Below are positions 20,348 to 36,337 of a DNA stretch of 64,000 nt, piece by piece. The DNA is from Candidatus Poseidoniaceae archaeon. Lineage in GTDB: Archaea; Thermoplasmatota; Poseidoniia; Poseidoniales; Poseidoniaceae. Position 1 is the stretch's first letter; each line of letters starts with the position of its first letter. The notes beneath the pieces were generated by a model. That model searched no databases. It was not told where the DNA came from and saw nothing but the letters and a program-made list of their open reading frames with translations. Both the position numbers and the translations under genes were made by a program. Location of the stretch: positions 79,458 through 143,457 of the forward strand of contig CBFIJH010000005.1 in NCBI GenBank assembly GCA_965662895.1. The letters are read 5' to 3'.

Positions 20348-20372
20348 GGCCACTTTATTTTGTAGGCCATAG

Positions 20373-20385
20373 TATAATATATAAC
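20373..20385 (+). promoter_or_regulatory. Putative TATA box (TATAATATATAAC) for a likely leaderless transcript
   Basis: AT-rich TATA consensus about 20-25 nt before ATG 20404. Confidence 0.55.
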
Positions 20386-20403
20386 AGAACTCCAGTGCGA
20401 CGC

Positions 20404-23600: not shown

Positions 23601-24371
23601 TCACTGTTCTGGTAACGTACCGTTCAAACTGTCAGGATTGTCCTCAAGTGGACCCCATTCTGTCTTGGTTCGATGGAGGCCAAATCGCTTTGCATAGAGG
23701 AATCTAAGGTTCTTCCAGCCATCACCCCACGTGTGGATTTCAGCATCTCCAACGCGTTCTCGGTATGGGACGGAAATTTCGATGGCTTTCTTACGACCAA
23801 GATGCTTGCGTGCAAGGATCTTGATCTCTTCTGAAAGTGGCATTCCATCGTTGGTTGGGCGCATCTTTGGATTCTCAAAAATCGACTTGCGGAACACCCA
23901 CATCCCCGATTGCGAATCCTTAATTCCATAACCGAAGAGGAGTCGAGCATTGAATGAGAGAGCCCAATTTCCAAATCCGTGGAGACCAGACATGGATCCG
24001 TCTTCTGCCATGCTCAGGCGATCACACGTGATGAAATCGAGGTCATCATCCAAAAGTCGCTTGACCAATTCAGGAATCAATTCTGCAGGATAGGTACAGT
24101 CTGCATCCATTGTGACAATGATGTCGTTCGATGCAACAACGAAACCCGTACGGTATGCCCGGCCGTAACCCTTCCGTGGTTCAAGGTGAACGCGAACATC
24201 TTTTTCAAGGGCGATTTCTCGAGTACGATCGGTCGATGAACCATCGACAATCATGATTTCGAGGGATTCGCACCATCCGCGCGGAATTGCATCAACGGTC
24301 GCACCAAGTGCTTCCTCTTCATTTCGAGTGGGAAGAAGAACCGTCACAGATACTGGTAGTACCTCGTCCAT
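23601..24371 (-). CDS. Glycosyltransferase family 2 (DPM1-like)
   Basis: VLLPTRNEE, VDGSSTDRT, KGYGRA, TMDADCTY (DxD), DSQSGM, ISVPYRERVG. Confidence 0.9.
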   Translation of the reverse strand: MDEVLPVSVTVLLPTRNEEEALGATVDAIPRGWCESLEIMIVDGSSTDRTREIALEKDVRVHLEPRKGYGRAYRTGFVVASNDIIVTMDADCTYPAELIPELVKRLLDDDLDFITCDRLSMAEDGSMSGLHGFGNWALSFNARLLFGYGIKDSQSGMWVFRKSIFENPKMRPTNDGMPLSEEIKILARKHLGRKKAIEISVPYRERVGDAEIHTWGDGWKNLRFLYAKRFGLHRTKTEWGPLEDNPDSLNGTLPEQ

Positions 24372-24424
24372 GTTGTGACGATAGGCAATGAGCGTTTCAA
24401 TGCATTGCCTCAACGGTCAAACGA

Positions 24425-25417
24425 TTACGACCATCGAGCACGTAGGCGACGGAGTGAAAGTTTCACAGCAAGACGAATCTTTCTCCATTTTGACAAGGAA
24501 GGACGCTTGCTAAACACGTCGCCTGAGCGGCGCACGATCTCGTGGAAAATAGCATCATAGGCTTCACACATCAGTTGTGGTTGCAATTGGGATTTTGAAT
24601 CAAGATATTCAAACAAATGCTGTGCTGATTCTTGGTGTCGTCGAACGATTTCGATGTATTCTTGAACAAAAGACTTCCACCGATGGTTGGTTCCAAATTC
24701 AGTATTCCCGAGCTCTGAAATATCGATATTGTATTCGCCTAATGCATTGATTGGAAGGTAAATTCGACCGCTTCGATAATCTTCAGAAACGTCACGAAGG
24801 ATGTTGATGAGTTGCAATTGGATGCCCATATCGATGGCGTGAATTCTCCCTCCGGCATCCTCACATCCATAAATTTCGATGAGAACCAAACCTACTGCAG
24901 AAGCCACCTTGTAACAGTATGCACGGACCTCGTCCCAAGTTTTGTGACGAACTTCGAACAGATCGTCTTCCATTCCTTCGATAATGGTTTCAAAATCAGA
25001 AAGTCGAACAGGGAAATGCTTGAACACTTCGTTGATGGCGATGAAAATGGCTTCATCTTGCGTTGCTGATTCATCACCTGCGAACAATCGTGTGAGTCGC
25101 TCCTTGGCATCAACAAGGGCCATCAATCGGTATCGGTGCTCCTCAGGAGGGTTGTTCATTGCCGTTTGGTGGATGCTCTGGAGAAGTCCGTCTCGCTCAT
25201 CCACGAGTTTGTTGAGGGCTTCGGATTCTCGAACAACTGGTCGAGAGTCTCCATCAGCAATATCATCGAGGTAACGGCACAGTGCGTAGACCGCATGAAC
25301 TGCACGACGTTTCTTGAAGGGCAGTGCTGAGAAACTAGCAAAAAATGTGGATGACGCACGACGACAAATTTCTTCACATTCAAGAAAAGCCTCTTCAATG
25401 GAAGTTGTTTTGTTCAT
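24425..25417 (-). CDS. crtB: Phytoene/squalene synthase family protein (phytoene synthase)
   Basis: SSTFF, AVYALCRYLDDIAD, YCYKVASAVG, MGIQLQLINILRDVSED..GRIYLP; SD GAGGTGA; in an operon with crtI. Confidence 0.9.
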   Translation of the reverse strand: MNKTTSIEEAFLECEEICRRASSTFFASFSALPFKKRRAVHAVYALCRYLDDIADGDSRPVVRESEALNKLVDERDGLLQSIHQTAMNNPPEEHRYRLMALVDAKERLTRLFAGDESATQDEAIFIAINEVFKHFPVRLSDFETIIEGMEDDLFEVRHKTWDEVRAYCYKVASAVGLVLIEIYGCEDAGGRIHAIDMGIQLQLINILRDVSEDYRSGRIYLPINALGEYNIDISELGNTEFGTNHRWKSFVQEYIEIVRRHQESAQHLFEYLDSKSQLQPQLMCEAYDAIFHEIVRRSGDVFSKRPSLSKWRKIRLAVKLSLRRLRARWS

Positions 25418-25439
25418 TTTTTCACCTCAATTCTATTGT

Positions 25440-25895
25440 TTATGAATGCGTGTTGTTTTCCTTGTTCATCTGCATTGTAATGAAATGGATGGCGAGTCCT
25501 ACTGGCATGAGCATAACGCCGAACAAAATTGCCACTTGCGCAGCAGTTTTGTTGATTTCTGTTTCAACACTTCGCTTCCAAATCCATCGCGTGACGATGA
25601 TGTCACCAATCACAAAGTGCGTCCATGCAAGAACAGCACCATCGTCTGTGCCAAGGACTTCAGCAAGGCCCGAAACGAAACCGCTCAGGGTACCGTCCCC
25701 GATCATATCGCTGAGAGCACCGAGATTCATTGCAAGAACGATCAGATAAGCAATCAACGGTCCAAGGACAAACCATGGTCCATCCATCCATTTTTTCGTT
25801 CGTTCAGCATATGGTTGAAGGAGCATAAGCATCCAGAACGGACCAACCCACATCGATGCTGCGAAGAAGGCGACCAGAAGCATTGTTTCAACCAT
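25440..25895 (-). CDS. ABA4-like (DUF4281) membrane protein
   Basis: PFWMLMLLQP...T, YL, LAWTHFVIGDIIVTRWI, LMPVGL match the ABA4/DUF4281 pattern (W.H....D....RW; M.gP.G). Confidence 0.8.
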   Translation of the reverse strand: MVETMLLVAFFAASMWVGPFWMLMLLQPYAERTKKWMDGPWFVLGPLIAYLIVLAMNLGALSDMIGDGTLSGFVSGLAEVLGTDDGAVLAWTHFVIGDIIVTRWIWKRSVETEINKTAAQVAILFGVMLMPVGLAIHFITMQMNKENNTHS

Positions 25896-26458
25896 TAAAT
25901 CACCTTCTCATATGCTTGTTCGATTTCGTCAATCGAGTTCTCGGTCGGATAATAGGTGTCACTTTCCCACTGGATGACGCCGTTTTGGTCGATGAGGAAC
26001 AACGCAGGTGTTCCAGGAAGACCATAGTATTCAAAAATGGATTGACTCAAATCGGCTTGATCTTCGATTCGTTGGATTGAATCATCGTCTGTTGGCAAAA
26101 CAATCGGCCATGGAGTGTAGTGGTCGCTTTCCGTGAAACCAAATTCTTCAGCGACGTCCTCTTTGGTTTCAAATCGGAGGTACCGTTCAACAGAAACGAT
26201 TTGCAAAGGTGGCTCCTGATTCATCCAATCGTTGTGATGTTCTCGCAAATCATCGGTCCAATCTTTGCAGCCAGTACATCCTACTCCGATGAAGAGCACG
26301 AGGACGGGCCCCTCGCTCAAGTTTTCTTTCATCGAATACATTGGTCCACCGTCTTCCTCCCGGTCGAGGGTTTCGACAGTAAAGACACGTCCGTCCTCAG
26401 GGGTCGGTTCAATGCAGCCTGCCAGGAGCAAAATGAGCACAAGGGCAACGAAACGCAC
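25895..26458 (-). CDS. Thioredoxin-fold (TlpA/redoxin-like) lipoprotein
   Basis: Lipobox LLAGC; CTGC (CxxC); YGLPGTPALFLIDQNGVI (cis-Pro loop). Confidence 0.8.
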   Translation of the reverse strand: MRFVALVLILLLAGCIEPTPEDGRVFTVETLDREEDGGPMYSMKENLSEGPVLVLFIGVGCTGCKDWTDDLREHHNDWMNQEPPLQIVSVERYLRFETKEDVAEEFGFTESDHYTPWPIVLPTDDDSIQRIEDQADLSQSIFEYYGLPGTPALFLIDQNGVIQWESDTYYPTENSIDEIEQAYEKVI

Positions 26459-26467
26459 GTTGCTCCC

Positions 26468-28075
26468 TCAAGCGTTGGTCGGCGTTCCTGCTTCTTTCGC
26501 AGTTGTCACCTTTCGTTGAGCTTTCCGTCCACGAGGCGAGCGGCGAATGCCTTCGAACCAAGTATCGACGCCGTTCCAATCCGGGTCAATTCCGAGGTCA
26601 TCCAACACGAGTTTGCTGCTGATTCGAGCGCTCTCAAAGATGGTCGGTAGTCCACTGCCGGGATGTGTACCTCCACCGACAATGTAGAGGTTGTTTGCTT
26701 CTTCAAACCGGTTGTGCGGGCGTCGCCAGAGCATTTGTTTGAGGTCGTGTGTGAGGTTAAACACTGCACCGCGATAGATGTCAGATGCACCCCAGTCATC
26801 GGGTGTGATTACGGTCTCTGAAACGATGTGATCGCCAATATCATCGTACCCAAGTTTTGCCAGTTGTTTGACAACAATTTCTCTGAAATCTGCTTTGATG
26901 TCATCCCAAACGATGCTCTCGTGCTGGTTTGGTACAGGTACGAGAACGTAAATCGTCGAGTGTCCCTCAGGAGCGAGCGAGTCATCGGTTATTGACGCAT
27001 TTTGAACGTAGACGGATGGGTCGTCCCATGTCAAACGATGATTGGTGATATCTTTGAGATTCTTTTCGTACTCTGAGGATGCATAGATTTGATGATGTGG
27101 TAAATCGTATTGCTTGTCAACACCCAAGTAGAGCATAAAGGTTGAACAAGAATATCCTTTCTTTTCCAGTTTCTTATCGGACCATTTCTTGCGCTTCTCA
27201 TTGGGGACGAGTGTTGTCATTGCATGAGCAAAATCTGCGTTGACAACCACTCTGTCGGCCATTATTTCAGCGCCGTCAATCCGGACGCCTTTGACGGTTT
27301 TACCTTCATAGATGAGGGACTCAACCGGAGTGCTGAGTCGAATATTGACGCCCATTTCTTCCGCAATTTCAGCCATTCGAGCAGTGATGCTTCCTAGGCC
27401 TCCTTTGGCGTGGAAAATGCCGTGCTCGTACTCAAGGAAGGCGAGAATCGTAAACAGCGAAGGGGCATGGAACGGGCTCATTCCCAGGTACTTGGTTTGG
27501 AACGACATTGCGAGTCGAATGCGTTCATCATCGAAATGCTTACTGAGATCTCCAGCAACGCTGGCCCAAGGCTTGAGGACAGAAGCCACCCGCATGGCTC
27601 GTCTCGAAAGAATGTCCAACGGACTTCGCCATGGAGTTTGCAAACACTTCTTGCTGAGGTCAAGCTTTCTTCGGTTTTGTTTGACGTACTTTTTGAATCC
27701 TTCAGCGTTTTTGTCACCGGCAAGCTCTCGAATACGTTCTGTCATTTCTTCGAGGTTGCTTGTCGCATCGATGTGGCCTCCAGCGCCAAAGACAAGCCTG
27801 TACATCGGGTCCAATGGCATCAAACCGAGTTCCTTGTGTGCGTCTCGACCAATTGCTTGGAAGATCTCTTCGATAACTTCTGGATAGTGGAAGAAGGTTG
27901 GTCCACGGTCGAACGTGTATCCGTCCTTTGTGTACAATCTGGTGCGTCCACCGACGGCATCGGCTTTCTCGAGTACGGTCACGTTGACACCTGAATGGGC
28001 GAGGAGAAGTGCAGAAGCAAGACCGCCCGGTCCTGACCCTACGATGATTGCGGTTGGTTTATTCTGAGTACTCAT
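26468..28075 (-). CDS. crtI: Phytoene desaturase (CrtI/CrtN family)
   Basis: FAD motif IVGSGPGGLASA..LEK..VGGR, FDRGPT, FQTKYLGMSP, SCSTFMLYLG, NLYIVGGGTHPGSGLPTIFESARI. Confidence 0.93.
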   Translation of the reverse strand: MSTQNKPTAIIVGSGPGGLASALLLAHSGVNVTVLEKADAVGGRTRLYTKDGYTFDRGPTFFHYPEVIEEIFQAIGRDAHKELGLMPLDPMYRLVFGAGGHIDATSNLEEMTERIRELAGDKNAEGFKKYVKQNRRKLDLSKKCLQTPWRSPLDILSRRAMRVASVLKPWASVAGDLSKHFDDERIRLAMSFQTKYLGMSPFHAPSLFTILAFLEYEHGIFHAKGGLGSITARMAEIAEEMGVNIRLSTPVESLIYEGKTVKGVRIDGAEIMADRVVVNADFAHAMTTLVPNEKRKKWSDKKLEKKGYSCSTFMLYLGVDKQYDLPHHQIYASSEYEKNLKDITNHRLTWDDPSVYVQNASITDDSLAPEGHSTIYVLVPVPNQHESIVWDDIKADFREIVVKQLAKLGYDDIGDHIVSETVITPDDWGASDIYRGAVFNLTHDLKQMLWRRPHNRFEEANNLYIVGGGTHPGSGLPTIFESARISSKLVLDDLGIDPDWNGVDTWFEGIRRSPRGRKAQRKVTTAKEAGTPTNA

Positions 28076-28096
28076 GAATCCACCAGTGAGAAACGG

Positions 28097-28104
28097 CTTA
28101 TAAA
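28097..28104 (-). promoter_or_regulatory. TATA box TTTATAAG of an internal crtI promoter (leaderless)
   Basis: Consensus archaeal TATA about 22 nt upstream of the crtI ATG, in the 45-bp gap after the ABC1 gene. Confidence 0.65.
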
Positions 28105-28120
28105 TCGACGTTTTGAACCA

Positions 28121-29410
28121 CTAGTCGGCTGGCTGTATCTCGCCTTCCCAGAACGTTTTCGTGATGGTTTTTTGCGTCCTGGAATCTTTTGAATACGGTA
28201 GTTCGACGATCGAAGCAAATTCATCGAGATAAGGCCCCATTGATGAGATAAGATCGATGTCTGGATGCCCACGAAGAACCATTCCATCCATGTACATCAA
28301 CGAACGGATGATTGGGAAGGCTTCCTCACCAAAGCGACAGCCAGCCAGGACAGCGATGCGCACCGTTTTCATCATCTGCTGTGTGAGACTAACCTCGCTG
28401 ACGGATTTGCCGACAAATCCATCATAGATTTCGTGCATTTCACGCATGTATCGCGCCTTCGCCTCACCAGTTGGAGGTGTGTCTGCCATGGTCAACATTG
28501 CTTCAAACGCACCCTCAAGTTCTCCCTTCGCAAGATAGTAGAAGAAGCCGAACAGCGCTGAACGTACACTTTCTGGAGCGTGAGAAATTGCACCAGTATC
28601 AATAAAGGTGAATTGCCCGTTTTCATCGACCATCGCATTTCCTGGGTGAAGGTCGCCGTGGAATGTCCCGATACCAAACATGAAAGCACCGTGGATGCGA
28701 AACAACTGCAACAAGTCGTCCCAGGATAGATTTCCTTTCGAAAGTCTAGATTCGAGAGTAGGGGCTTTGATGTGTTCCATGACCAAAACGTGTTGATTTG
28801 AGAGTTCTGGCCAAACTTTTGGAAAGTTCAACAAGGGCATGGGGAATTGGTGTTCGACCTCTTTGGCTTTCGATTGAAGCAACTCAGCACCTTGAATTTC
28901 GTTTCGCAAGTCAAGCTCTCGAAGTGTGTAATCCTCAACGTGCTGAAGCAAACCGACTGGATTGCCCACTTTTCGAAGTCGAGGATTCAAAAACAGTCCA
29001 ATTCTAAGCCATCGGCGCATTCGAGCGACATCTTTGCGGAACGATTTCTCAAAATCCGCCTTGATGATCTTCACCACCACTTGACTTCCGTCTTTGAGGA
29101 CACCACGGTGTACCTGTCCGATGCTTGCTGCTGCAAAGGGTTCTTCTTCGAAGGACTCAAAGGCATCAAGGAATCCGGCAGGAGCTCGACTTCGAATCAG
29201 CGACATCGAATCCTCCTTCGGAATCGAATTTGCTCTCTGATACAGCGATTGAAGTTGTCTGCACTTTTCTTCAGACAGTAGATCGGGACGGAGTGCGAAG
29301 ATTTGAGTGAGTTTAACAGCAAGCAACCCCATCTTCTGTATTTTATCGAGGTCGGCAGGGCCGTCCTTCGTAATCATGCGAATAAAACGAACGAATGTCA
29401 GGAGGCGCAT
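28121..29410 (-). CDS. AarF/UbiB/ABC1 atypical kinase
   Basis: VKLTQ (KxGQ-like), PFAAASIGQVHRG, VVVK, ELDLRNE, VLVME, FHGDLHPGN, FIDTG. Confidence 0.92.
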   Translation of the reverse strand: MRLLTFVRFIRMITKDGPADLDKIQKMGLLAVKLTQIFALRPDLLSEEKCRQLQSLYQRANSIPKEDSMSLIRSRAPAGFLDAFESFEEEPFAAASIGQVHRGVLKDGSQVVVKIIKADFEKSFRKDVARMRRWLRIGLFLNPRLRKVGNPVGLLQHVEDYTLRELDLRNEIQGAELLQSKAKEVEHQFPMPLLNFPKVWPELSNQHVLVMEHIKAPTLESRLSKGNLSWDDLLQLFRIHGAFMFGIGTFHGDLHPGNAMVDENGQFTFIDTGAISHAPESVRSALFGFFYYLAKGELEGAFEAMLTMADTPPTGEAKARYMREMHEIYDGFVGKSVSEVSLTQQMMKTVRIAVLAGCRFGEEAFPIIRSLMYMDGMVLRGHPDIDLISSMGPYLDEFASIVELPYSKDSRTQKTITKTFWEGEIQPAD

Positions 29411-29435
29411 AGTAAAAAAATCTCCTTTTCATTTA

Positions 29436-30257: not shown

Positions 30258-31651
30258 GCAGACGGTTCCGCTGGTTGTTCTTCATTGTTCATGATGATAT
30301 GGTAGCGCCAGAGGTCTTCTGGCTCACCGGTTCCATCGTATCTTCGGACGTTGACGTTTCCATCTTTCGGGAATCGAGTCATCAAGGCTCCTTCGATGAT
30401 ACCATCATCAAGTTCCCACATGGGTAGTACGTCTGGATCTTCGCTTGGAGGATGGTCGAGTCCAACCTGCACATGGAAGACCGGATCGATACCGTATTCA
30501 AGCCGACCAAGTCCAGCAAATTCCCACCAATCCATCATTTCATCGAGGAATTCGACGTGATTTTCGATTGAACGGAGTGAGAAAGCCAACTCGTGTCCGA
30601 CACGATTTCCGACTTGACGCAACATTCGAGCCAAGTCAATACCGAGGATTTTCAAATTTGATAATCTGCCCTTCGTAAGCTCCTGCCGTGCTTGGTTGAC
30701 TTCCGTTCCAGCTGCGAGGAAGGCATCTGGGTCGAATGGTGTGTCGTGTTCGGGAAGGTCGTCAACGCCGAGGGCACCGACTAGGGAATCGAGGAAGGAA
30801 CCCTCGCCGATTGTCAGTCGAAGTGGGTCATGGATTCTCCCTTTCGAAAATCGGGCTTCTGCGACTTCAAACTGTACTGCGTCTTCCCAGATTGTATCGA
30901 TTAGATTCTCTTGTGCTTTAGCGAAAGGTTCGCTTTCGATGACGAGTGCAGCGTCTTCTTTTCCACGTCCAACTGGATTTTCTTCGATGTTGAGGAACTG
31001 AACAACGTGTGTACAATCCTGGAGGAATCCTTGGGAATCAAGGTCATCTGAATGTTTGATTTCAATTGAATCATGAAGTTTCTGGAAGAAACGTGTTGTT
31101 CGGCGATCAAGTTGGGCAATGACCTGGACCACAACACCCTTTTCAGCAACTGAATTGATGGTTTCTAGGGCTTCACTTCTGCAGAGGTGAAGAATACCGT
31201 ACCGTCCGAGGAGTAGGACGAGCCGTTCTTCAGCATCCTCTGCCATTCGCTCAAGCCTGCGGTAAATGTGGCTTCGTTCTTTGAGAACTGCGAATCGTGG
31301 TTCATCACGCTGGCGGCGGTTCGCCTCGTAGGAAGCATTTGCTTCCGTGATGCCTTTGGAGAGCTCATTGAATCCTTCTTCGAGGTTATCCAGTTGCCTG
31401 CGGCGCATCTCAATAATGTGCTGCAACGCTTCATCAACACGCAAGCTTGAAAACAACATCGGCCGGTCAGCAGTTGCTGTAACGATACCCATTTCTTGGA
31501 GCCTTGAGAGGCTGTTGTACGCATCCAGTCGCGTTGTTTGCAATTCCTTTGCGAGTTCGCTTGCACGCATGTTTGGATTGTTGCCAAGCACCATGATTGA
31601 GCGTACTTCTCGTTCAGTGAGACCAGCTTCGTTCAGAAGGCTGTCCCACAT
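30254..31651 (-). CDS. TrmB-family transcriptional regulator with a C-terminal V4R-like domain
   Basis: GLTEREVR..ASELAK..RLDAYNSLSRLQEMGIV..RPMLF (TrmB HTH); coiled coil; TrmB effector-like domain ending IDTIWEDA; C-terminal VGNRVG..WEFAGLGRLE..GIIEGAL. TAATG overlap with the upstream gene. Confidence 0.85.
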   Translation of the reverse strand: MWDSLLNEAGLTEREVRSIMVLGNNPNMRASELAKELQTTRLDAYNSLSRLQEMGIVTATADRPMLFSSLRVDEALQHIIEMRRRQLDNLEEGFNELSKGITEANASYEANRRQRDEPRFAVLKERSHIYRRLERMAEDAEERLVLLLGRYGILHLCRSEALETINSVAEKGVVVQVIAQLDRRTTRFFQKLHDSIEIKHSDDLDSQGFLQDCTHVVQFLNIEENPVGRGKEDAALVIESEPFAKAQENLIDTIWEDAVQFEVAEARFSKGRIHDPLRLTIGEGSFLDSLVGALGVDDLPEHDTPFDPDAFLAAGTEVNQARQELTKGRLSNLKILGIDLARMLRQVGNRVGHELAFSLRSIENHVEFLDEMMDWWEFAGLGRLEYGIDPVFHVQVGLDHPPSEDPDVLPMWELDDGIIEGALMTRFPKDGNVNVRRYDGTGEPEDLWRYHIIMNNEEQPAEPSA

Positions 31652-32175
31652 TAGTCGGATCCCCCAGTGACGGATGAGAGGCTCTTGAGGATTCGAGCAA
31701 CGTGTCGGCGTGGACGGAACAACCAATCGTATACATGGTGGATTCGATTGTCAGGCCCAATCAAGAAACTGGATTTGGCAGGAAACATTCCGAGATGGAC
31801 TGGAACCAGGAATTTGTCTGCGACTTCCCTTTCCGGATCGGCAAGAAGTGGAAACGGAAGTCCACCAATTTCTTTCTTGAACTTGGCATGCGATTCGCTT
31901 GTTCCTTCCCCAATTCCAACGACTTTGCATCCTGCTGAGACGAACAAATCGTGTTGTTCCTTGAAGGTGAGACAGCCTCGCTTGCACGTCGGTGACCCAT
32001 CCTTCGCATAGAAGAACAAAATTCGCCATGAATCATTCAGCGATTTGCTGTCAAAAACGTTGCCTACGTCATCAGTAAGCGTGAATTCAGGTGCGAGTTC
32101 TCCAATCAAATCTTTGCTCACTCGCTTCGCCTCATTGTGGGTGAGGCGCTCTGCTGTCAATATGACTTCCCCCAT
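31651..32175 (-). CDS. BCP/PrxQ-like peroxiredoxin with an atypical active site
   Basis: GELAPEFTL, LFFYAKDGSPTCKRGC, VVGI, SHAKF, LPFPLLADP, SSFLIGPD; SD GAGGGTGA before ATG 32175. Confidence 0.8.
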   Translation of the reverse strand: MGEVILTAERLTHNEAKRVSKDLIGELAPEFTLTDDVGNVFDSKSLNDSWRILFFYAKDGSPTCKRGCLTFKEQHDLFVSAGCKVVGIGEGTSESHAKFKKEIGGLPFPLLADPEREVADKFLVPVHLGMFPAKSSFLIGPDNRIHHVYDWLFRPRRHVARILKSLSSVTGGSD

Positions 32176-32186
32176 GTGCATCACCC

Positions 32187-32798
32187 TCAGATTGGCAGAA
32201 TGTGACGCATTCGCAACGCTTTTGTTCGCAGATAATTTTTGTTTTCTGAGCAAAATCCTGCTTTGTGAGATACACGGTCGACAACCGATATGCCGTGCTG
32301 TTCGAGTTGCTCGACCTTGTCCGGGTTGTTGGTCATGAGACGAACGCTGTCATATCCTATATCAGTGAGGATGTGGGCTGCGATTGTGTAGTCACGGCCA
32401 TCGGCGGGTAAATTGAGCGCAAGATTAGCATCGAGTGTGTCAAGCCCACGGTCTTGTAGGTTGTAGGCCTGCATCTTTGCAAATAGTCCAATGCCGCGAC
32501 CTTCCTGGCGGAGGTAAAGAACGATGCCACGTCCTTCTTTTTGGATGGTCTTTAATGCACGTTGCAACTGTGGTCCACAATCGCATCGAAGACTTCCAAG
32601 AGCGTCTCCAGTTAGGCATTCTGAGTGGATGCGGACAAGAGGGGGGGTTTGATCGTTCATGTCGCCGTGATAGATGGCTGCGTGTTCGGAGCCATCTTTC
32701 GGGTCGATGTATGATCGTATGCGGAACTCACCATACTTCGTGGGGAGTTTTGCGTCAGCAGGAACTGCCGTAAACTTCTGGTTAGGATTTACCTTCAT
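32187..32798 (-). CDS. ribA: GTP cyclohydrolase II
   Basis: LVRIHSECLTGDALGSLRCDCGPQL, YLRQEGRGIGL, AYNLQDRGLDT, RLMTNNPDK. Confidence 0.96.
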   Translation of the reverse strand: MKVNPNQKFTAVPADAKLPTKYGEFRIRSYIDPKDGSEHAAIYHGDMNDQTPPLVRIHSECLTGDALGSLRCDCGPQLQRALKTIQKEGRGIVLYLRQEGRGIGLFAKMQAYNLQDRGLDTLDANLALNLPADGRDYTIAAHILTDIGYDSVRLMTNNPDKVEQLEQHGISVVDRVSHKAGFCSENKNYLRTKALRMRHILPI

Positions 32799-32820
32799 GT
32801 TTTACTTCAACGACGTTGTA

Positions 32821-32828
32821 GGTATAAA
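32821..32828 (-). promoter_or_regulatory. TATA box TTTATACC for the ribA-led operon (leaderless)
   Basis: About 22 nt upstream of the ribA ATG; palindrome CAACG-A-CGTTG (32808-32818) lies between the TATA box and the ATG. Confidence 0.6.
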
Positions 32829-32905
32829 GGACTGTTTCTGAACAAGCCTGTTTGTGCTAATTTGTTAAACGGTCCTTCAAATACCTGTTGTGGATTATTC
32901 GGATT

Positions 32906-33403
32906 ATGACTGGCGACTTCGATGTAGGCGTGGCTGCTGCGGTCACCAACGATTCCGGCATCCTACTGGTCAAAGAATCCAAGGGCCCCTACGCCGGGTT
33001 CTGGGGCTTGCCAAAAGGATACGTCGAGCCGAACGAATCGATCGAATCAGCCGTACTACGGGAACTCAAAGAGGAAACGCACCTCGACGGGAAAATCTCA
33101 GGATTCCTTGGCTTAAGAACGACCAAGACAAACAAAGGCGTTGGTTTGTTTCTCTGCTACAAAATCGAACCAACGAGCACGGAAATCCGACCACAACAGG
33201 ATGAGATATCCGATGTGAAGTTTTTCAATCTTGAATCCTTTGACCAACTCGAATGGGTTTCTGCAGCAATGCGAGGGTTTGCTGAAGTAGCACTCAAAGA
33301 CACATCGCTCCCCCTTGTCGACCTGAGCCATGAATCAAAGCGCCCGTATCATCTCGTATTCAGCGATGGGCGTGCAACACTTTTGGATGAGGTGATTCAA
33401 TGA
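32906..33403 (+). CDS. NUDIX hydrolase
   Basis: WGLPKGYVEPNESIESAVLRELKEETHL Nudix box; ATGA overlap with the photolyase gene. Confidence 0.92.
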   Translation: MTGDFDVGVAAAVTNDSGILLVKESKGPYAGFWGLPKGYVEPNESIESAVLRELKEETHLDGKISGFLGLRTTKTNKGVGLFLCYKIEPTSTEIRPQQDEISDVKFFNLESFDQLEWVSAAMRGFAEVALKDTSLPLVDLSHESKRPYHLVFSDGRATLLDEVIQ

Positions 33404-34890
33404 TTGACGTTCGTCGGATTGATGCCAATGATAAGCCTCTCAATCCCGAAGGGACCCATATTGTCTATTGGATGACCAGTGCACGACGGGCACGATGGAA
33501 TCATGCCCTCGATCACGCCATCGAACTTGCCAATGAACACAATGTTCCACTCCTAGTCGTCGAATGTCTGGCGCTTGGGCACCGATGGGCAAACGATCGC
33601 ATACACACCTTCGTTTTGCAGGGAATGATTGACAACAGAAAGCTGTTCGAATCGAGTGCTGTAACGTATGTCCCTTACGTCGAGACCAAGAAAGCCCAAG
33701 CCGGAGGTCTACTGCAATCCTTCTCCGAAGATGCAGTCGCCGTCGTCATCGACTATTTCCCGACCTACATGCCCCGCGATGTTGCCCAGCGAGCCAAGGA
33801 TTTAGCCAAATGCTCGGTCCAATGCATCGACAGCAACGGAATCGTTCCTCTGGCGGCTCCTCAACGCTCTTTCTCAACGGCACATTCCTTCCGCCGATAC
33901 ATCCACAAGAATGTCCTCAACTACATCGCAAGTCCGCCACACTCCGAACCTCTCAAGCACCTGAAGGATGTACCTAACGGTACGAACATCGTTAAGGAAT
34001 GCTTTGAGCGCGTCGATGTTCCCTTAACACCGCTCGAGTTTATTTGGAGAGTTTCAGAAGCCTCACGAGAAGGACGAGAAGCCCTCGCTGTATTGGACAT
34101 CGATCACGAAGTTCCACCAGTCGACGAACGACGTGGAGGCTCGGTTACAGCTCGTACAGAACTCAAGAAATTCATCGAGCAGAAACTTGAATCGTATCAC
34201 GTTGATCGTAATCACCCGGAGCGTTCTGGAGGAAGTGGCTTGTCTCCATGGCTCCACTATGGTCACATTTCGACGTTCGAAATCATCCATGAAGTGCTCG
34301 ATTCACAGGGTTGGAATCCAATGAAAATCACACCACCGCACAACGGTCGTCGGGCCGGTTGGTGGGGTATGAGCGAAGGTGCTGAAGCCTTTTTGGACCA
34401 GGTCATCACATGGAGAGAACTTGGATTTGTTTACTGTCATGAACATCCGGATCACACCGCTTACGGCACGCTTCCAGAATGGGCCAAAGCCACGCTTGAG
34501 GAACACGAGAATGACGAACGGCCCTACATCTACACCTTCGAGCAGTTGGAACGTGGTGAAACGCATGACCCGTTGTGGAATGCAGCACAAATTCAACTTC
34601 GCAAAGATGGAATCATTCACAACTACCTCCGAATGCTATGGGGTAAGAAGGTGTTGGAATGGTGTCCCGATCCGGAAACTGCATGCAAGTGGTTGATTCG
34701 TCTCAATGATCGCTGGGCCCTCGACGGACGAGATCCGAACTCCTACACTGGCATCTTCTGGATTTTCGGTCGCTTCGACCGAGGATGGTTCGAACGCTCC
34801 GTCTTTGGAAAGGTACGGTACATGACATCCGCATCAACCCAACGTAAGTTCAAAACTGAGGATTATATACGAAAATACGCGGATTCTTAA
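33400..34890 (+). CDS. phr: Class II CPD deoxyribodipyrimidine photolyase
   Basis: VYWM..ARR..WNHAL, SGLSPWLHYGHIS, WREL, THDPLWNAAQ, HNYLRMLWGKKVLEW, DGRDPNSY, DRGWFERSVFGKVRYM (class II signature). Confidence 0.93.
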   Translation: MIDVRRIDANDKPLNPEGTHIVYWMTSARRARWNHALDHAIELANEHNVPLLVVECLALGHRWANDRIHTFVLQGMIDNRKLFESSAVTYVPYVETKKAQAGGLLQSFSEDAVAVVIDYFPTYMPRDVAQRAKDLAKCSVQCIDSNGIVPLAAPQRSFSTAHSFRRYIHKNVLNYIASPPHSEPLKHLKDVPNGTNIVKECFERVDVPLTPLEFIWRVSEASREGREALAVLDIDHEVPPVDERRGGSVTARTELKKFIEQKLESYHVDRNHPERSGGSGLSPWLHYGHISTFEIIHEVLDSQGWNPMKITPPHNGRRAGWWGMSEGAEAFLDQVITWRELGFVYCHEHPDHTAYGTLPEWAKATLEEHENDERPYIYTFEQLERGETHDPLWNAAQIQLRKDGIIHNYLRMLWGKKVLEWCPDPETACKWLIRLNDRWALDGRDPNSYTGIFWIFGRFDRGWFERSVFGKVRYMTSASTQRKFKTEDYIRKYADS

Positions 34891-34899
34891 CATTAGGAG

Positions 34900-36297
34900 A
34901 TGCGTATGCCGATTTTTGAACACACCGCAACCTTTCCATTTTCTCGTCAAACCGTCTGGGATTGGCATGCTCGACCCGGAGCTGTTCGCCGCATCATGCC
35001 GGATTGGGAAGGAATCCGTCCTGTTGAAGTCGGTGGAATTACCGATGGAGCCATCACCGAATTTCGAATGAAAATTGGTATTGTGCCACAACGATGGGTG
35101 GCAAAACATCACGGTTACATGGAAGGCGAACAATTCTGTGATGATATGGTGAAGGGTCCTTTCGGGCGCTGGAATCATGTCCACAAATTCGTTGAGAACA
35201 ACGAAAATGAAATGCAAATTCACGACCGTATCGATTGGAAATTACCGTTTCATTTCTTTACCCGAATTGGTGCTCCAATCATGGTCATGCCCCGTGTCAA
35301 TCAAATGTTCAAGCATCGTTCGCGACGCATTCTTGCGGATTTAAATCGCCAACAGATGTTCAAAGATGCACCACGAAAAAGAATTCTCATTACTGGCTCG
35401 ACAGGTCTCATTGGAACACAACTAGGGGCATTTCTTGAGACCGACGGTCATGATGTCCATCGACTCTTGCGGCCGAGTACACGACTCCACGCCGATCAGG
35501 ATTCAACAAAGGTTGTCAAATGGAACGATCGAACCGGAGAAGTTACGCAAGGTTCGCTTGAAGACTTCGACGTCGTGATTCACCTTGCCGGTGCTGGAAT
35601 TGGGGAGAAACGCTGGAGTAAGAAACGAAAGAAACTCATTTCTGAAAGTCGCGAAATCCCAACACGTCATCTTTCCAATGCTTTGGCGGAACTAAAATCA
35701 CCTCCATCGCTGTTCATTTGTGCTTCCGCAGTTGGGTTTTACGACAATCGAGGCGATGAAGACCTTGACGAAAACAGTAGCATCGGCGAAGGCTTCCTCG
35801 CTCGGATTTGTAAGAAGTGGGAAGATGCCACTGAACCTGCTGTGAATGCTGGCATCCGGACAATTTTGATGCGAACTGGGATCGTTACCACGGCGGCAGG
35901 TGGTATGCTTCAACAGATTCTCTTGCCTGCAAAATTCGGCGCTTTGGGTCCCATAGGTGGCGGTCGCCAATGGCAATCATGGATTTCTTTGGACGACCAA
36001 ATCTATGCAATTCATTTCCTTATGAACCATGAAACTGCAAGTGGAGTTATCAATCTCACTGCTCCAAACCCGGTCACACAGAAACAATTTGCAAAGACAC
36101 TTGGGAAGGTTTTACGACGTCCAGCATTTGCTCCAGCACCTGGATTTGTCATGAAAATTCTCTTTGGTGAGATGGGGAAATCGCTTATTCTGGATGGGCA
36201 AAAAGTCCATCCGAAGCGACTGTTGAATTTGGGATACAAATTTGAACATGAAACGCTCGAACCAGCGCTTCGTGATGCTTTAGGACGGTTCAATTAA
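34900..36297 (+). CDS. SRPBCC (START-like) domain fused to a TIGR01777-family NAD-dependent epimerase
   Basis: N-terminal VWDWH..RWVAKH..FCDDMVKGPFGRWNHVHKF; then ILITGSTGLIG, HLAGAGI..RWS, ASAVGFY, GGGRQWQSWI, NLTAPNPV, RRPA. Alternative start at 34906 after AGGAG. Confidence 0.9.
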   Translation: MRMPIFEHTATFPFSRQTVWDWHARPGAVRRIMPDWEGIRPVEVGGITDGAITEFRMKIGIVPQRWVAKHHGYMEGEQFCDDMVKGPFGRWNHVHKFVENNENEMQIHDRIDWKLPFHFFTRIGAPIMVMPRVNQMFKHRSRRILADLNRQQMFKDAPRKRILITGSTGLIGTQLGAFLETDGHDVHRLLRPSTRLHADQDSTKVVKWNDRTGEVTQGSLEDFDVVIHLAGAGIGEKRWSKKRKKLISESREIPTRHLSNALAELKSPPSLFICASAVGFYDNRGDEDLDENSSIGEGFLARICKKWEDATEPAVNAGIRTILMRTGIVTTAAGGMLQQILLPAKFGALGPIGGGRQWQSWISLDDQIYAIHFLMNHETASGVINLTAPNPVTQKQFAKTLGKVLRRPAFAPAPGFVMKILFGEMGKSLILDGQKVHPKRLLNLGYKFEHETLEPALRDALGRFN

Positions 36298-36337
36298 TCG
36301 TCGCTTTGTTCATAACCGGTACATGTCATGGGCGAAC

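What the first reader, a model, noticed from the sequence alone, without database searches (positions are those of the whole stretch)
23601..36297. Candidate archaeal light/photo-oxidative-stress island: carotenoid, flavin and photolyase genes around one divergent promoter with an internal regulator
Seen: left arm ribA > atypical Prx > TrmB-V4R > DUF1295 > ABC1 kinase > crtI > CxxC lipoprotein > ABA4-like > crtB > GT2, with overlaps or gaps of about 50 bp or less. Right arm NUDIX > class II photolyase > SRPBCC-TIGR01777. The arms diverge from a ~107-bp spacer. Known: in bacteria, crt, photolyase, DUF1295 and TIGR01777-type genes co-occur in light/singlet-oxygen regulons controlled by LitR/CarH or RpoE-ChrR; RibA starts synthesis of FAD and lumazine/deazaflavin photolyase chromophores; most archaea use GTP cyclohydrolase III instead. 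No CarH, ChrR, LOV or BLUF gene is in the window. Inference: a bacterial-style photoprotection module rewired under an archaeal TrmB regulator, which I do not recognise as a described system.
Basis: partly seen in the sequence, partly recalled or inferred. Interest (0 to 1): 0.8.

Follow-up and report, generated by a model that had tools for sequence, protein, structure and literature searches.

The report
Poseidoniales light-damage defence gene island
A gene island in a sunlit-ocean archaeon groups a DNA photolyase, antioxidant, flavin and carotenoid genes with their own likely regulator, and these genes share a promoter signal that points to one light-damage defence programme not found described in the papers searched.

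Summary
All 13 genes are at the stated coordinates, in the stated order, around a 107-bp divergent spacer.

New here:
- The core Reg<Prx<ribA<>(NUDIX)PhrII>T1777 is kept in 17 of 20 loci from 15 Poseidoniales genera.
- Among 121 genomes, the regulator ortholog is in 75 of 76 with rhodopsin and 8 of 45 without.
- The island ribA is a second copy. All 121 genomes have a ribA; 80 of 83 regulator-bearing genomes have two or more, and all 38 others have one.
- Five genes in the window (ribA, NUDIX, ABC1, crtI, crtB) carry the same element, AAC[AG]-N4-7-TATA, 37-38 nt before the start codon. The other 11 genes do not. Genome background is 18 of 774.
- The element also precedes unlinked nei and an FeS-BCP-type photolyase/cryptochrome gene, and it stays with crt/ABC1 genes that have moved away. 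It is found in only 1 of 8 regulator-less genomes.
- The regulator is TrmB-like with a Cys-less V4R-like end.

Verdict: a lineage-specific light/oxidative-damage regulon. Light induction and regulator binding are inferred, not shown.

The parts
32187..32798 (-). ribA2: an accessory second copy of GTP cyclohydrolase II, first gene of transcription unit 1
   Evidence: PF00925 at 5e-68. TIGR00505 and NF001591 are above their cut-offs. The housekeeping copy lies at G000:C13:13422-14006 (58% identity). Genomes without the island have only one copy.
31651..32181 (-). PrxQ/BCP-like peroxiredoxin with a C-x3-C motif
   Evidence: AhpC-TSA at 1.5e-26. Cysteines at positions 66 and 70. It follows ribA in 20 of 20 diverse loci.
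30254..31651 (-). Regulator: TrmB winged helix, coiled coil, PLD-like domain and a Cys-less V4R-like C-terminal domain. Its start overlaps the Prx stop codon by 1 nt.
   Evidence: PF01978 34 bits. AF2 model pLDDT 78.6. TrmBL2 5bpd Z 16.7; TrmB sugar-binding domain 2f5t Z 15.8, rmsd 2.5. C-terminal model pLDDT 80.6, matching Bet3, MJ1460 V4R, PoxR and H-NOX at E 0.007-0.07. No cysteine in the V4R part, unlike the paralogs.
29436..30257 (-). DUF1295 membrane protein, last gene of transcription unit 1. Peripheral: linked only in this genus.
   Evidence: PF06966 at 5e-50. It follows the regulator in 30 of 30 same-genus loci. In the diverse set it is adjacent in the same orientation only in the same-genus locus; one other locus has a 24%-identity match in the opposite orientation.
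28121..29410 (-). ABC1/UbiB-type atypical kinase, transcription unit 2 with its own promoter element
   Evidence: PF03109 at 1e-43. Element at -37. 13 of 18 orthologous promoters carry it.
29434..29449 (-). Promoter element plus TATA for ABC1, inside the 3' end of DUF1295
   Evidence: AACGCCGATTGATA at -37.
26468..28075 (-). CrtI-family carotenoid desaturase, first gene of transcription unit 3
   Evidence: TIGR02734 486 bits. Element at -37. Copies that have moved away keep the element: 7 of 9 by regex, 14 of 14 remote crtI/ABC1/crtB promoters by eye.
28098..28112 (-). Promoter element plus TATA for crtI, in the 45-nt gap between ABC1 and crtI
   Evidence: AACGTCGATTTATAA at -37.
25895..26458 (-). 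Thioredoxin-like CxxC protein with a signal peptide and lipobox-like motif
   Evidence: Weak AhpC-TSA and Thioredoxin_2 matches below the cut-offs. CTGC at 61-64 and LAGC at 12-15. It follows crtI in several genera.
25440..25895 (-). ABA4-like (PF14108) membrane protein
   Evidence: PF14108 at 5.8e-21, 75.7 bits, above the 27 cut-off. It travels with crtI in both families.
24425..25417 (-). Phytoene/squalene synthase family (crtB-like), first gene of transcription unit 4
   Evidence: PF00494 at 1.3e-56. No equivalog model is reached. Element at -37.
25441..25454 (-). Promoter element plus TATA for crtB, inside the 3' end of the ABA4-like gene
   Evidence: AACACGCATTCATA at -37.
23601..24413 (-). 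Family 2 glycosyltransferase (AglJ / dolichyl-phosphate hexose transferase-like). Peripheral.
   Evidence: PF00535 at 6e-25. NCBIfam matches are below their cut-offs. Linked only in family f1.
32823..32837 (-). ribA promoter. On the minus strand it reads AAACAGTCC-TTTATA, with AAAC at -39 and TATA at -30 to -25 from the ATG. This implies a leaderless mRNA.
   Evidence: 20 of 22 orthologous promoters from 15 genera carry it.
32867..32884 (+). NUDIX/right-arm promoter: AAACGGTCC-TTCAAATAC, with AAAC at -39 from the ATG
   Evidence: The first gene of the right arm carries it in 16 of 20 diverse loci: NUDIX 6 of 8, and PhrII 10 of 12 where it comes first.
32906..33403 (+). NUDIX hydrolase, first gene of transcription unit 5. 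Present in 8 of 20 diverse loci.
   Evidence: PF00293 at 3.9e-21.
33400..34890 (+). Class II-type CPD photolyase
   Evidence: TIGR00591 at 1.5e-110, full length but below the cut-off. The ortholog is in 79 of 121 genomes, 78 of which also have the regulator ortholog.
34900..36297 (+). N-terminal SRPBCC-like domain (a lead only) fused to a TIGR01777/DUF1731 NAD-dependent epimerase-like protein
   Evidence: TIGR01777 314 bits; DUF1731 at 5.6e-19. The N-terminal part has only an Atlas lead at 0.90 and no Pfam match.

Best explanation
The region is the core of a regulon specific to Poseidoniales that defends the cell against damage by sunlight: UV lesions in DNA and photo-oxidative damage to nucleotides, lipids and proteins.

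Shown:
1. A compact cassette is conserved across the order. It holds the photolyase (sometimes preceded by a NUDIX gene) facing ribA2-peroxiredoxin-regulator. It is present almost only in genomes that also carry rhodopsin. In regulator-less genomes the flanking genes T1777 and ABC1/crtI lie next to each other.
2. In the window, five transcription units carry the same element, AAC[AG]-N4-7-TATA, 37-38 nt before the start codon. They are ribA-prx-regulator-DUF1295, ABC1, crtI-Trx-like-ABA4-like, crtB-GT2 and NUDIX-photolyase-T1777. The spacing fits leaderless mRNAs.
3. The same element precedes two unlinked repair genes: nei/fpg and an FeS-BCP (DPRP)-type photolyase/cryptochrome gene. In other genera these two genes lie inside the island.
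4. The element stays with crt and ABC1 genes when they are relocated. It is largely gone where the regulator is gone.

Inferred:
- The operon-encoded regulator (TrmB winged helix, PLD-like domain, V4R-like domain) binds this element at the BRE position and controls all these units, including its own.
- Its Cys-less V4R-like domain, a fold that binds small hydrophobic ligands, receives the signal. It is therefore a ligand sensor and not a thiol switch.
- I lean slightly (about 55:45) towards repression by blocking BRE/TATA, relieved by the ligand, as for TrmB at its TM promoter. The alternative is activation at a promoter with a weak BRE.
- RibA2 would raise flavin and lumazine supply for the two flavoprotein photolyases, or clear oxidised guanine nucleotides. 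The carotenoid genes would give membrane protection.
For: Gene identities.

Synteny:
- 30 of 30 same-genus loci.
- Reg-Prx-ribA in 20 of 20 diverse loci, and a divergent PhrII in 17 of 20, from 15 genera.

Co-distribution in one draw of 121 genomes that are at least 85% complete:
- Regulator ortholog 83, PhrII ortholog 79, both 78.
- Rhodopsin 76, of which 75 have the regulator; 37 genomes have neither.
- Seven genera are mixed (g5, g7, g8, g10, g11, g13, g15).
- nei in 52 genomes, 51 with the regulator. DPRP in 54, 53 with the regulator.
- ribA in two or more copies in 80 of 83 regulator-bearing genomes, and one copy in 38 of 38 others.

Promoter element:
- Window: 5 of 16 genes.
- Background: 18 of 774 upstream regions in the genome.
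- Across diverse loci: ribA 20/22, right-arm first gene 16/20, ABC1 13/18, nei 22/30.
- Internal genes as controls: Prx 0/23, regulator 0/23, T1777 0/20, TrxL 0/5, ABA4 0/9.
- Relocated crtI/ABC1: 7 of 9.
- Regulator-less genomes: 1 of 8.
- The housekeeping ribA, rhodopsin, a third photolyase-family gene and both TFB genes lack it.
- The generic BRE of this genome differs.

Physical linkage: in genus g13, DPRP and nei lie 3-5 kb from the regulator (coordinates).

Regulator fold.

Not found outside the order in a phylum draw of 201 genomes.

Literature:
- A 24-h dark incubation lowered uvrA, uvrC, cofH and phytoene desaturase transcripts of an MGIIb MAG, while proteorhodopsin did not change (PMC9723583, section 14 and passages).
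- E. coli ribA is in the SoxRS regulon, and RibA hydrolyses 8-oxo-dGTP (PMC6092379, passages citing Koh 1996 and Kobayashi 1998).
- TrmB represses by covering BRE/TATA; TrmBL1 activates from upstream (PMC4706686, passages).
Against: - There is no expression data for this organism. No RNA run was listed.
- No binding data exist. The element is short and not palindromic. It occupies the BRE position, so a general factor or another regulator could read it.
- Counts for crtI (5/17), crtB (3/9) and DPRP (9/30) are modest. Part of this is because these genes are often internal to an operon, and part because the regex misses TTATAT-type TATA boxes.
- The regex was written after the first sites had been seen, so the enrichment is somewhat optimistic.
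- The 15 other regex matches in the genome include unrelated-looking genes: ThiN, GDP-mannose dehydratase, a thioesterase and SAM synthetase.
- Related genomes are not independent, so the co-distribution overstates the number of separate events.
- crtI also occurs in 17 of 45 genomes without rhodopsin.
- Eight regulator-bearing genomes show no rhodopsin.
- The V4R assignment rests on weak matches.
Confidence: 0.6

Rival explanations
1. A chromophore-supply island. Its main role would be to make the cofactors for light use: a carotenoid precursor of retinal for proteorhodopsin (crtB, crtI, with the Trx-like and ABA4-like proteins standing in for the missing cyclase or cleavage steps), and flavins. 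Damage defence would be secondary.
For: - Rhodopsin and crtI occur together in 75 of 76 rhodopsin-bearing genomes.
- No Blh (PF15461) or CrtYcd (PF18916) was found in the genome.
- The literature states that MGII carry rhodopsin but lack blh (PMC7734400, passages).
- Damashek et al. read the dark depletion of the desaturase transcript as light-regulated retinal synthesis (PMC9723583, passages).
- The ABA4-like and Trx-like genes travel with crtI in both families.
Against: - The conserved cassette holds no crt gene. crtI lies 71-82 kb away in part of genus g13 and is unlinked in several f3 genomes.
- crtI also occurs in 17 of 45 genomes without rhodopsin.
- The rhodopsin gene lacks the promoter element.
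- The other regulon members (two photolyase-family genes, nei, NUDIX, Prx) are repair or antioxidant genes.
- The PF15461 search rang in none of the control genomes, so the absence of Blh is weakly tested.
Confidence: 0.15
2. A general oxidative-stress regulon with no direct link to light. The signal would be peroxide, superoxide or an oxidised metabolite, as with OxsR, MsvR or SoxRS. The association with the photic zone would only reflect higher oxidant load there.
For: - Prx, NUDIX, nei and the ribA paralog fit known oxidant-induced genes. ribA is in the SoxRS regulon (PMC6092379, passages).
- A TrmB-family protein, OxsR, is a thiol-based oxidative-stress regulator (PMC9426492, abstract).
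- A V4R domain occurs in the redox regulator MsvR (NCBIfam name; its role is recalled).
- No dedicated photoreceptor domain was found.
Against: - The island regulator has no cysteine in its V4R part and only two in the whole protein, unlike its Cys-rich paralogs. A thiol switch is therefore unlikely.
- Two light-dependent photolyase-family enzymes sit at the centre.
- The distribution tracks rhodopsin closely.
Confidence: 0.2
3. The shared element is a special BRE/TATA variant read by a general factor (for example the second TFB) or by another regulator. The TrmB-V4R protein would then control something else, or only its own operon.
For: - The element lies exactly where a BRE would lie, and it is not palindromic.
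- The genome has two TFB paralogs.
Against: - TFB2 is present in 120 of 121 genomes, including those without the island, so it does not track the element.
- The element is found in 1 of 8 regulator-less genomes, against 13 of 18 and 7 of 9 in regulator-bearing ones.
- The regulator gene is translationally coupled inside the first unit.
Confidence: 0.12

Closest known systems
Bacterial light / singlet-oxygen regulons (LitR/CarH-controlled crt-photolyase clusters; RpoE-ChrR regulon of Rhodobacter and Vibrio)
   Same: They have the same kind of gene set: photolyase, carotenoid genes, DUF1295-type and TIGR01777-type genes and antioxidant genes under one dedicated regulator. The membership of those bacterial regulons is partly recalled. 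The titles and abstracts of PMC5241685 and PMC3546557 were seen only in a search listing.
   Different: No CarH/LitR-type B12-binding_2 domain was found in the genome, and ChrR was not tested. The candidate regulator here is an archaeal TrmB-PLD-V4R protein acting on archaeal BRE/TATA promoters of leaderless mRNAs. The set also holds an extra ribA, Prx, NUDIX, nei and ABC1.
TrmB / TrmBL1 / TrmBL2 family of archaeal regulators
   Same: It shares the winged helix, coiled coil and PLD-like effector domain: PF01978 above its cut-off, TrmBL2 Z 16.7 and the TrmB sugar-binding domain Z 15.8. A binding site at or next to BRE/TATA is a known TrmB mode of action (PMC4706686, passages).
   Different: It has an extra C-terminal V4R-like domain. 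No sugar genes lie nearby. The putative site bears no resemblance to TGM (TATCAC-N5-GTGATA). Orthologs were found only in Poseidoniales.
MsvR (V4R-domain redox regulator of methanogens) and OxsR (TrmB-family thiol regulator of Haloferax)
   Same: Both are archaeal stress regulators placed beside the antioxidant genes they control. MsvR shares the V4R-type C-terminal region (NCBIfam NF053755 partial match at 3.3e-6). OxsR shares the TrmB winged helix (PMC9426492, abstract).
   Different: The MsvR model score is 27 bits against a cut-off of 220. The cysteines of the V4R region kept in the paralogs are absent from the island regulator. OxsR is a single-domain protein.
SoxRS-type induction of ribA in E. 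coli
   Same: GTP cyclohydrolase II is placed under a stress regulon. It has a possible second role in clearing 8-oxo-dGTP (PMC6092379, passages).
   Different: Here a dedicated second gene copy carries the stress promoter, and the housekeeping copy lacks the element.

Membership tests
TrmB family transcription regulator | TrmB-type winged helix-turn-helix (PF01978) above Pfam's cut-off | tested here: met
   34.1 bits against a cut-off of 25.6, residues 7-68.
TrmB family transcription regulator | Overall TrmB/TrmBL2 architecture: winged helix, coiled coil and PLD-like effector domain | tested here: met
   Foldseek 5bpi at E 7.9e-12. VIA: 5bpd Z 16.7 (249 aligned, rmsd 21.6 because of domain placement); 2f5t Z 15.8, rmsd 2.5, 131 aligned.
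TrmB family transcription regulator | Sugar ligand and sugar-regulon context | tested here: not met
   No sugar-metabolism genes appear in any of the orthologous neighbourhoods. Ligand-binding residues were not examined.
V4R domain / MsvR | Sequence match to a V4R or MsvR model above its cut-off | tested here: not met
   Pfam lists no V4R match at E <= 0.01. NF053755 MsvR scores 27 bits against a cut-off of 220.
V4R domain / MsvR | V4R/Bet3/H-NOX-like fold of the C-terminal domain | tested here: inconclusive
   Domain model pLDDT 80.6. Best matches at E 0.007-0.07: Bet3/TRAPP subunits, MJ1460 V4R (2osd, 0.014), PoxR sensory domain, H-NOX and BcsD. The profile matches MJ1460 at E 0.7.
V4R domain / MsvR | Conserved cysteines in the V4R region (redox switch) | tested here: not met
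   They are absent in the island-type orthologs and present in the 32-38%-identity paralogs.
Class II CPD photolyase | Full-length match to the class II model (TIGR00591) | tested here: inconclusive
   E 1.5e-110, residues 5-493 against model positions 9-453 of 453, but 370.6 bits is below the 550 cut-off. Pfam DNA_photolyase and FAD_binding_7 are just below their cut-offs.
Class II CPD photolyase | FAD binding and CPD repair activity; antenna chromophore | not testable with these tools
   This needs biochemistry. No CofG or CofH match reaches its cut-off in the genome.
GTP cyclohydrolase II (RibA) | Match to the RibA models above their cut-offs | tested here: met
   PF00925 228 bits. NF001591 265.9 against a cut-off of 148. 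TIGR00505 257.3 against 205.85.
CrtI phytoene desaturase family | Family-level model above its cut-off | tested here: met
   TIGR02734 485.6 against 238.1.
CrtI phytoene desaturase family | Specific reaction (phytoene desaturation or 3,4-desaturation) | tested here: inconclusive
   The equivalog models are not reached: CrtID 335 against 640, CrtD 236 against 580.
Phytoene synthase CrtB | SQS_PSY domain, and an equivalog that separates phytoene synthase from squalene or presqualene synthase | tested here: inconclusive
   PF00494 192.6 bits is met. HpnD scores 191.9 against 278.6, and CrtB 151.6 against 550, so neither is reached.
LitR/CarH or RpoE-ChrR light regulon | Presence of the defining regulator (B12-binding MerR-type CarH/LitR, or the ChrR anti-sigma factor with RpoE) | tested here: not met
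   B12-binding_2 (PF02607) was not found in the 92%-complete genome, while it rang in 9 control genomes. ChrR and RpoE were not searched; archaea have no sigma factors (established knowledge).
SRPBCC fused to TIGR01777 | TIGR01777 / DUF1731 C-terminal part | tested here: met
   314.3 bits against 207.35; DUF1731 68 bits against 27.
SRPBCC fused to TIGR01777 | SRPBCC (START / polyketide cyclase-like) N-terminal domain | tested here: inconclusive
   No Pfam match at E <= 0.01. The ten best Atlas feature hits are all SRPBCC/Polyketide_cyc, at a score of 0.90. This is a lead only.

The most novel reading that the evidence does not exclude
The TrmB-PLD-V4R protein would be a new kind of archaeal light-response transcription factor. 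Its Cys-less V4R-like pocket would bind a small hydrophobic molecule that light produces or consumes. Candidates are a carotenoid or apocarotenoid (such as retinal) made by the regulon's own crt genes, a lumazine or flavin made through RibA2, or a lipid photo-oxidation product. Alternatively, it would pair with the regulon's FeS-BCP-type cryptochrome/photolyase as the photoreceptor. Either way it would switch on a dispersed regulon of about seven transcription units through a BRE-position element. This would be the first transcriptional light-response circuit defined in marine planktonic archaea. It could also expose the unknown retinal route of MGII, which lack blh.
Probability: 0.2. Interest if true: 0.85.

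Novelty: new variant of a known kind. Interest (0 to 1): 0.62.

Why it matters
Poseidoniales (Marine Group II) are the most abundant archaea in sunlit ocean water and have never been cultured. Beyond the presence of proteorhodopsin and photolyase genes, how they cope with sunlight is unknown.

This analysis turns a gene neighbourhood into a testable regulatory model. It names a candidate regulator, a candidate DNA element, and a defined set of target units, including genes far from the island.

It shows that a whole cassette (photolyase, extra ribA, peroxiredoxin, regulator) is gained or lost together with rhodopsin. That gives a genomic marker for photic adaptation that is richer than rhodopsin alone.

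It also points to the ABA4-like and thioredoxin-like genes beside crtI as candidates for unknown carotenoid chemistry in a lineage reported to lack the known retinal-forming enzyme.

Tried and rejected
- RNA evidence: the look-up of sequencing runs listed no RNA holder, only four runs of unrecorded kind, kept as contigs, from one study. Read laying was not run, because contigs cannot show expression.
- Strict pattern search: an 18-nt consensus matched only the right-hand site. I replaced it with looser composite patterns and measured their background.
- Palindrome idea: the two spacer sites are inverted, but their spacing varies from about 24 to 35 bp between genera. I dropped the idea of one rigid dyad bound by a single dimer.
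- Generic BRE idea: positional composition and TATA-anchored alignment show a different generic BRE (S-G-A-A just upstream of TATA). AAAC occurs nine bases upstream of TATA in only 3 of 37 TATA-anchored promoters.
- TFB-paralog idea: TFB2 is in 120 of 121 genomes whether or not they have the island.
- Deazaflavin antenna: the CofH and CofG models matched two genes below their cut-offs (290 and 261 bits against 374; 40 bits against 213). From recall, these are probably menaquinone MqnE/MqnC-type enzymes.
- Lycopene cyclase and Blh: PF18916 was not found. PF05834 gave only weak N-terminal FAD-type matches. PF15461 was not found, but it rang in no control genome, so that test is weak.
- PDB sequence search with the regulator profile gave only weak hits: peroxiredoxin stretches at E 0.007, judged spurious, and MJ1460 at E 0.7.
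- Other motif-bearing candidate genes were not followed by comparative footprinting. They are a small membrane protein, a cupredoxin, the MCM B12-binding subunit, ThiN, GDP-mannose dehydratase, a thioesterase, SAM synthetase and a Zn-ribbon protein. Some are probably chance matches.
- Gene trees for bacterial origin were not built.
- Supplementary tables of PMC9723583 (Table S6, the 36 dark-depleted genes) are closed. They may list orthologs of ribA2, Prx, the photolyase or the regulator, and so bear directly on the claim.

Full report
**What is there**

The window is G000:C5:79458-143457 of a 1.86-Mb genome that is 92% complete. Homologs of its proteins are labelled Poseidonia or Candidatus Poseidoniales by their sources.

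- Minus strand: ribA, a PrxQ/BCP-like peroxiredoxin, a TrmB-type regulator, DUF1295, an ABC1/UbiB kinase, a CrtI-family desaturase, a thioredoxin-like CxxC protein with a lipobox-like signal peptide, an ABA4-like membrane protein, an SQS_PSY (crtB-like) synthase and a family 2 glycosyltransferase.
- Plus strand: NUDIX, a class II-type photolyase and a TIGR01777 protein with an extra N-terminal domain.

Gaps are at most 45 bp, or the genes overlap by 1-4 nt. The spacer is 107 bp when NUDIX starts at the ATG at 32906. The regulator starts at the ATG at 31651 and overlaps the Prx stop codon by one base. Distant orthologs align from there.

**Conservation**

All 30 same-genus loci keep NUDIX<>ribA>Prx>Reg>DUF1295>ABC1 wherever the contig allows. 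Full 20-kb neighbourhoods in the genus keep all 13 genes and the flanks.

I examined 20 loci from 15 genera in two families, where the regulator is 50-98% identical:
- Reg-Prx-ribA is contiguous in 20 of 20.
- A divergently placed photolyase, directly or after NUDIX, is present in 17 of 20.
- ABC1 follows the regulator in 16 of 20.
- crtI lies within the locus in 14 of 20.
- NUDIX is present in 8 of 20.
- DUF1295 is adjacent in the same orientation only in the window's own genus. One other locus has a 24%-identity match in the opposite orientation.

A second class of TrmB-V4R proteins, 32-38% identical, sits in unrelated neighbourhoods.

**Distribution**

One draw of 121 Poseidoniales genomes, each at least 85% complete, was searched with each gene.

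| Gene | Genomes with it (of 121) | Overlap with the regulator ortholog |
|---|---|---|
| Regulator ortholog | 83 | – |
| Regulator paralog only | 11 | – |
| Photolyase ortholog | 79 | 78 have the regulator |
| Rhodopsin (PF01036) | 76 | 75 have the regulator |
| crtI | 92 | not tallied against the regulator |
| nei | 52 | 51 have the regulator |
| DPRP-type gene | 54 | 53 have the regulator |

- The single exception for rhodopsin, photolyase, nei and DPRP is G075. There the photolyase lies at a contig edge.
- Eight regulator-bearing genomes show no rhodopsin. Thirty-seven genomes have neither.
- Seven genera contain both states, so the pattern reflects repeated concerted change. Related genomes are still not independent.
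- Rinke et al. and a later study already noted that photolyase follows proteorhodopsin in MGII (PMC6461757 and PMC10480650, passages). The rest is not in the passages I saw.
- crtI is wider than the regulator: 75 of 76 rhodopsin-bearing genomes, and 17 of 45 others.
- Outside the order, no ortholog of the regulator was found. In a draw of 201 Thermoplasmatota genomes (41 of them in f1 and f3 beside G000), the only matches outside families f1 and f3 were in 8 genomes, at 23-27% identity, mostly to the N-terminal part.

**The ribA is an extra copy**

Every one of the 121 genomes has a ribA. Of the 83 regulator-bearing genomes, 80 have two or more matches. All 38 others have exactly one.

In the window's genome the second copy is at C13:13422-14006 (58% identity), and it lacks the promoter element. 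The island ribA is an accessory, stress-type paralog.

In E. coli, ribA belongs to the SoxRS regulon, and the enzyme can hydrolyse 8-oxo-dGTP (PMC6092379, passages).

**A shared promoter element**

Aligning the spacers showed two conserved blocks in inverted orientation. Each has a TATA box about 25-30 nt from its start codon, preceded by AAAC[AG]GTYC. Both AAAC motifs lie exactly 39 nt before the ATG.

The same design holds in all genera examined. It differs from the generic promoter signal of this genome.

I used a fixed loose pattern: [AT]AC[AG], then 4-7 bases, then a TATA-like hexamer, starting 35-42 nt before a start codon. Genome background is 18 of 774 upstream regions.

In the window the pattern occurs before ribA, NUDIX, ABC1, crtI and crtB, and before none of the other 11 genes. 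The island is therefore five transcription units with alike promoters, not one divergent pair.

Counts across the diverse loci:

| Gene | Promoters with the pattern |
|---|---|
| ribA | 20 of 22 |
| First gene of the right arm | 16 of 20 |
| ABC1 | 13 of 18 |
| crtI | 5 of 17 |
| crtB | 3 of 9 |
| Prx (internal control) | 0 of 23 |
| Regulator (internal control) | 0 of 23 |
| T1777 (internal control) | 0 of 20 |
| Trx-like (internal control) | 0 of 5 |
| ABA4-like (internal control) | 0 of 9 |

**Members outside the island**

The genome-wide matches include two unlinked repair genes:
- An Fpg/Nei DNA glycosylase at C3:16304-17122 (Pfam).
- A DPRP/FeS-BCP-type photolyase-cryptochrome at C2:22997-24628 (PF04244 at 1e-44).

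The element precedes nei in 22 of 30 orthologous loci from several genera. It precedes DPRP in 9 of 30, of which 6 of 8 are in the window's genus. In genus g13 DPRP has no promoter of its own, because it sits inside the island.

In g13 the order is Reg>ABC1>...>DPRP><nei, within about 5 kb (coordinates). In g14, DPRP and nei are neighbours elsewhere in the genome. Linkage, co-distribution and the shared element therefore agree.

A divergent Rieske<>MMPL pair at C4:149887-153138 also carries the element on both sides. I did not follow it up.

**The element travels with the genes and disappears with the regulator**

Where crtI, crtB or ABC1 lie far from the cassette, their promoters still have the element at -37 or -38. 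This holds for 7 of 9 by the first pattern. By eye it holds for 14 of 14, because two crtI promoters have a TTATAT box that the pattern misses.

Eight genomes lack the regulator but keep crtI. In five of them T1777 and ABC1/crtI lie directly next to each other, as if the cassette had been cut out or never inserted. Only 1 of the 8 first-gene promoters has the element. The exception is G054, a fragmented close relative of the island-bearing G051.

This is the best available evidence that the regulator and the element belong together.

**The regulator**

The AF2 model (pLDDT 78.6) matches TrmBL2 and TrmB over residues 1-263. It has a winged helix, a coiled coil and a PLD-like domain equivalent to the first half of TrmB's sugar-binding part.

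The last 178 residues, modelled alone (pLDDT 80.6), give weak but coherent matches: Bet3/TRAPP subunits, the MJ1460 V4R protein, the phenol-sensing domain of PoxR, H-NOX and BcsD. This is the V4R-like group of domains that bind small hydrophobic ligands; that grouping is recalled.

JGI names homologs 'TrmB/predicted hydrocarbon binding protein'. The paralogs keep a set of cysteines in this domain. The island-type proteins have none there, which argues against a thiol switch of the MsvR or OxsR kind.

No BLUF or CarH-type B12 domain exists in the genome.

**How it most likely works**

*Shown:* a cassette tied to the photic lifestyle, a dispersed set of units with one promoter design, and co-loss of the element and the regulator.

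*Inferred:* the regulator binds the element at the BRE position of each unit, including its own operon, and responds to a small molecule through the V4R-like domain.

TrmB represses by covering BRE/TATA, and TrmBL1 activates from upstream (PMC4706686, passages). The position here fits either mode, and I lean slightly towards repression relieved by a ligand.

The products then act as follows:
- Repair of UV lesions: the class II photolyase and the DPRP-type enzyme.
- Removal of oxidised bases and nucleotides: Nei, NUDIX and perhaps RibA2.
- Supply of flavin or lumazine cofactors: RibA2. That FeS-BCP enzymes use a lumazine antenna is recalled.
- Removal of peroxides: Prx.
- Protection of membranes: carotenoids, with ABC1 and DUF1295 of unknown role.

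The only expression data I could find are from another genus. A 24-h dark incubation lowered uvrA, uvrC, 'cofH' and a phytoene desaturase transcript in an MGIIb MAG, while proteorhodopsin did not change (PMC9723583, section 14 and passages). The rhodopsin gene here also lacks the element.

**Rivals**

- *A chromophore-supply role for the crt genes.* This is plausible as a side function, given that MGII are reported to lack blh (PMC7734400, passages). It does not explain the cassette.
- *A pure oxidative-stress regulon.* This is possible, but it fits the photolyases and the rhodopsin link less well.
- *A general-factor reading of the element.* The TFB2 distribution and the co-loss result weaken this.

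**Novelty**

Five searches of the held library turned up no description of this cluster, element or regulator. Only the photolyase-rhodopsin association and isolated crt transcripts are in print in what I saw.

It works like bacterial light and singlet-oxygen regulons, but with an archaeal regulator and archaeal promoter logic. I rate it a new variant of a known kind.

Noticed in passing
window 26468-28075 (crtI); compare G067, G071, G061 and G006, G009, G024: The window's crtI is 85-93% identical to copies in another genus (g13). It is only 67-68% identical to the copies in three genomes of its own genus, although the neighbouring genes are about 90% identical there (L050). This suggests allele replacement or recombination of the crtI segment within the family.
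   Followed up: partly
L035-L041 (G040, G056, G038, G058, G045 C2, G039); also second matches in many f1 genomes: A paralogous TrmB-V4R family, 32-38% identical, keeps several cysteines in its V4R part (GSCGG..PFC..C..HCH). It lies in neighbourhoods with none of the island genes. It is also present in genomes without rhodopsin. It could be a redox- or metal-sensing relative.
   Followed up: partly
G047:C13:779-1857: In this genome the island-type regulator is split into two pieces by an in-frame TAG, and no photolyase ortholog was found, yet rhodopsin and nei are present. This may be a cassette in decay.
   Followed up: no
G000:C4:149887-153138 (outside the window): A divergent pair, a 125-aa Rieske protein and a 922-aa MMPL/RND-type transporter, carries the same promoter element on both sides at -37. 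It may be a further regulon member, perhaps a lipid or carotenoid exporter.
   Followed up: partly
G134:C10, G147:C13, G114:C305, G077:C29: In genus g16 the DPRP-type gene lies in open frames of 1300-1420 aa, next to a paralog of the class II photolyase. In G000 a third photolyase-family gene sits in a 799-aa open frame (C1:211099-212412). These may be fused or tandem photolyase-family genes.
   Followed up: no
L171, L173, L175, L176, L177 (G041, G050, G096, G132, G039): In regulator-less genomes, T1777 and ABC1/crtI face each other directly. The photolyase-ribA2-Prx-regulator block therefore behaves as one insertable or deletable cassette.
   Followed up: partly
window 36323-40148: Two large proteins with signal peptides and no Pfam or NCBIfam match (848 and 431 aa) follow T1777 with a 25-nt gap and a 17-nt overlap. 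They are conserved in that position in family f1. They may extend the right-hand unit, and they have no promoter element of their own.
   Followed up: partly
window 20332-22665: A 777-aa ORF carries LDL-receptor class A repeats (PF00057 at 2.5e-8). This is an unusual domain for an archaeon.
   Followed up: no
G051:C1:160146-161681, G054:C29:2462-3997, G146:C30:8245-9768: The crtI matches in these three genomes each contain one in-frame TAG. I did not examine whether this reflects a broken gene, a sequencing error or recoding.
   Followed up: no
G000:C1:132396-133397 and C1:52789-53826: Two radical-SAM genes match CofH and CofG below the cut-offs. From recall they are probably menaquinone (futalosine-pathway) enzymes. 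This may also explain the 'cofH' label used for MGII transcripts in PMC9723583.
   Followed up: no
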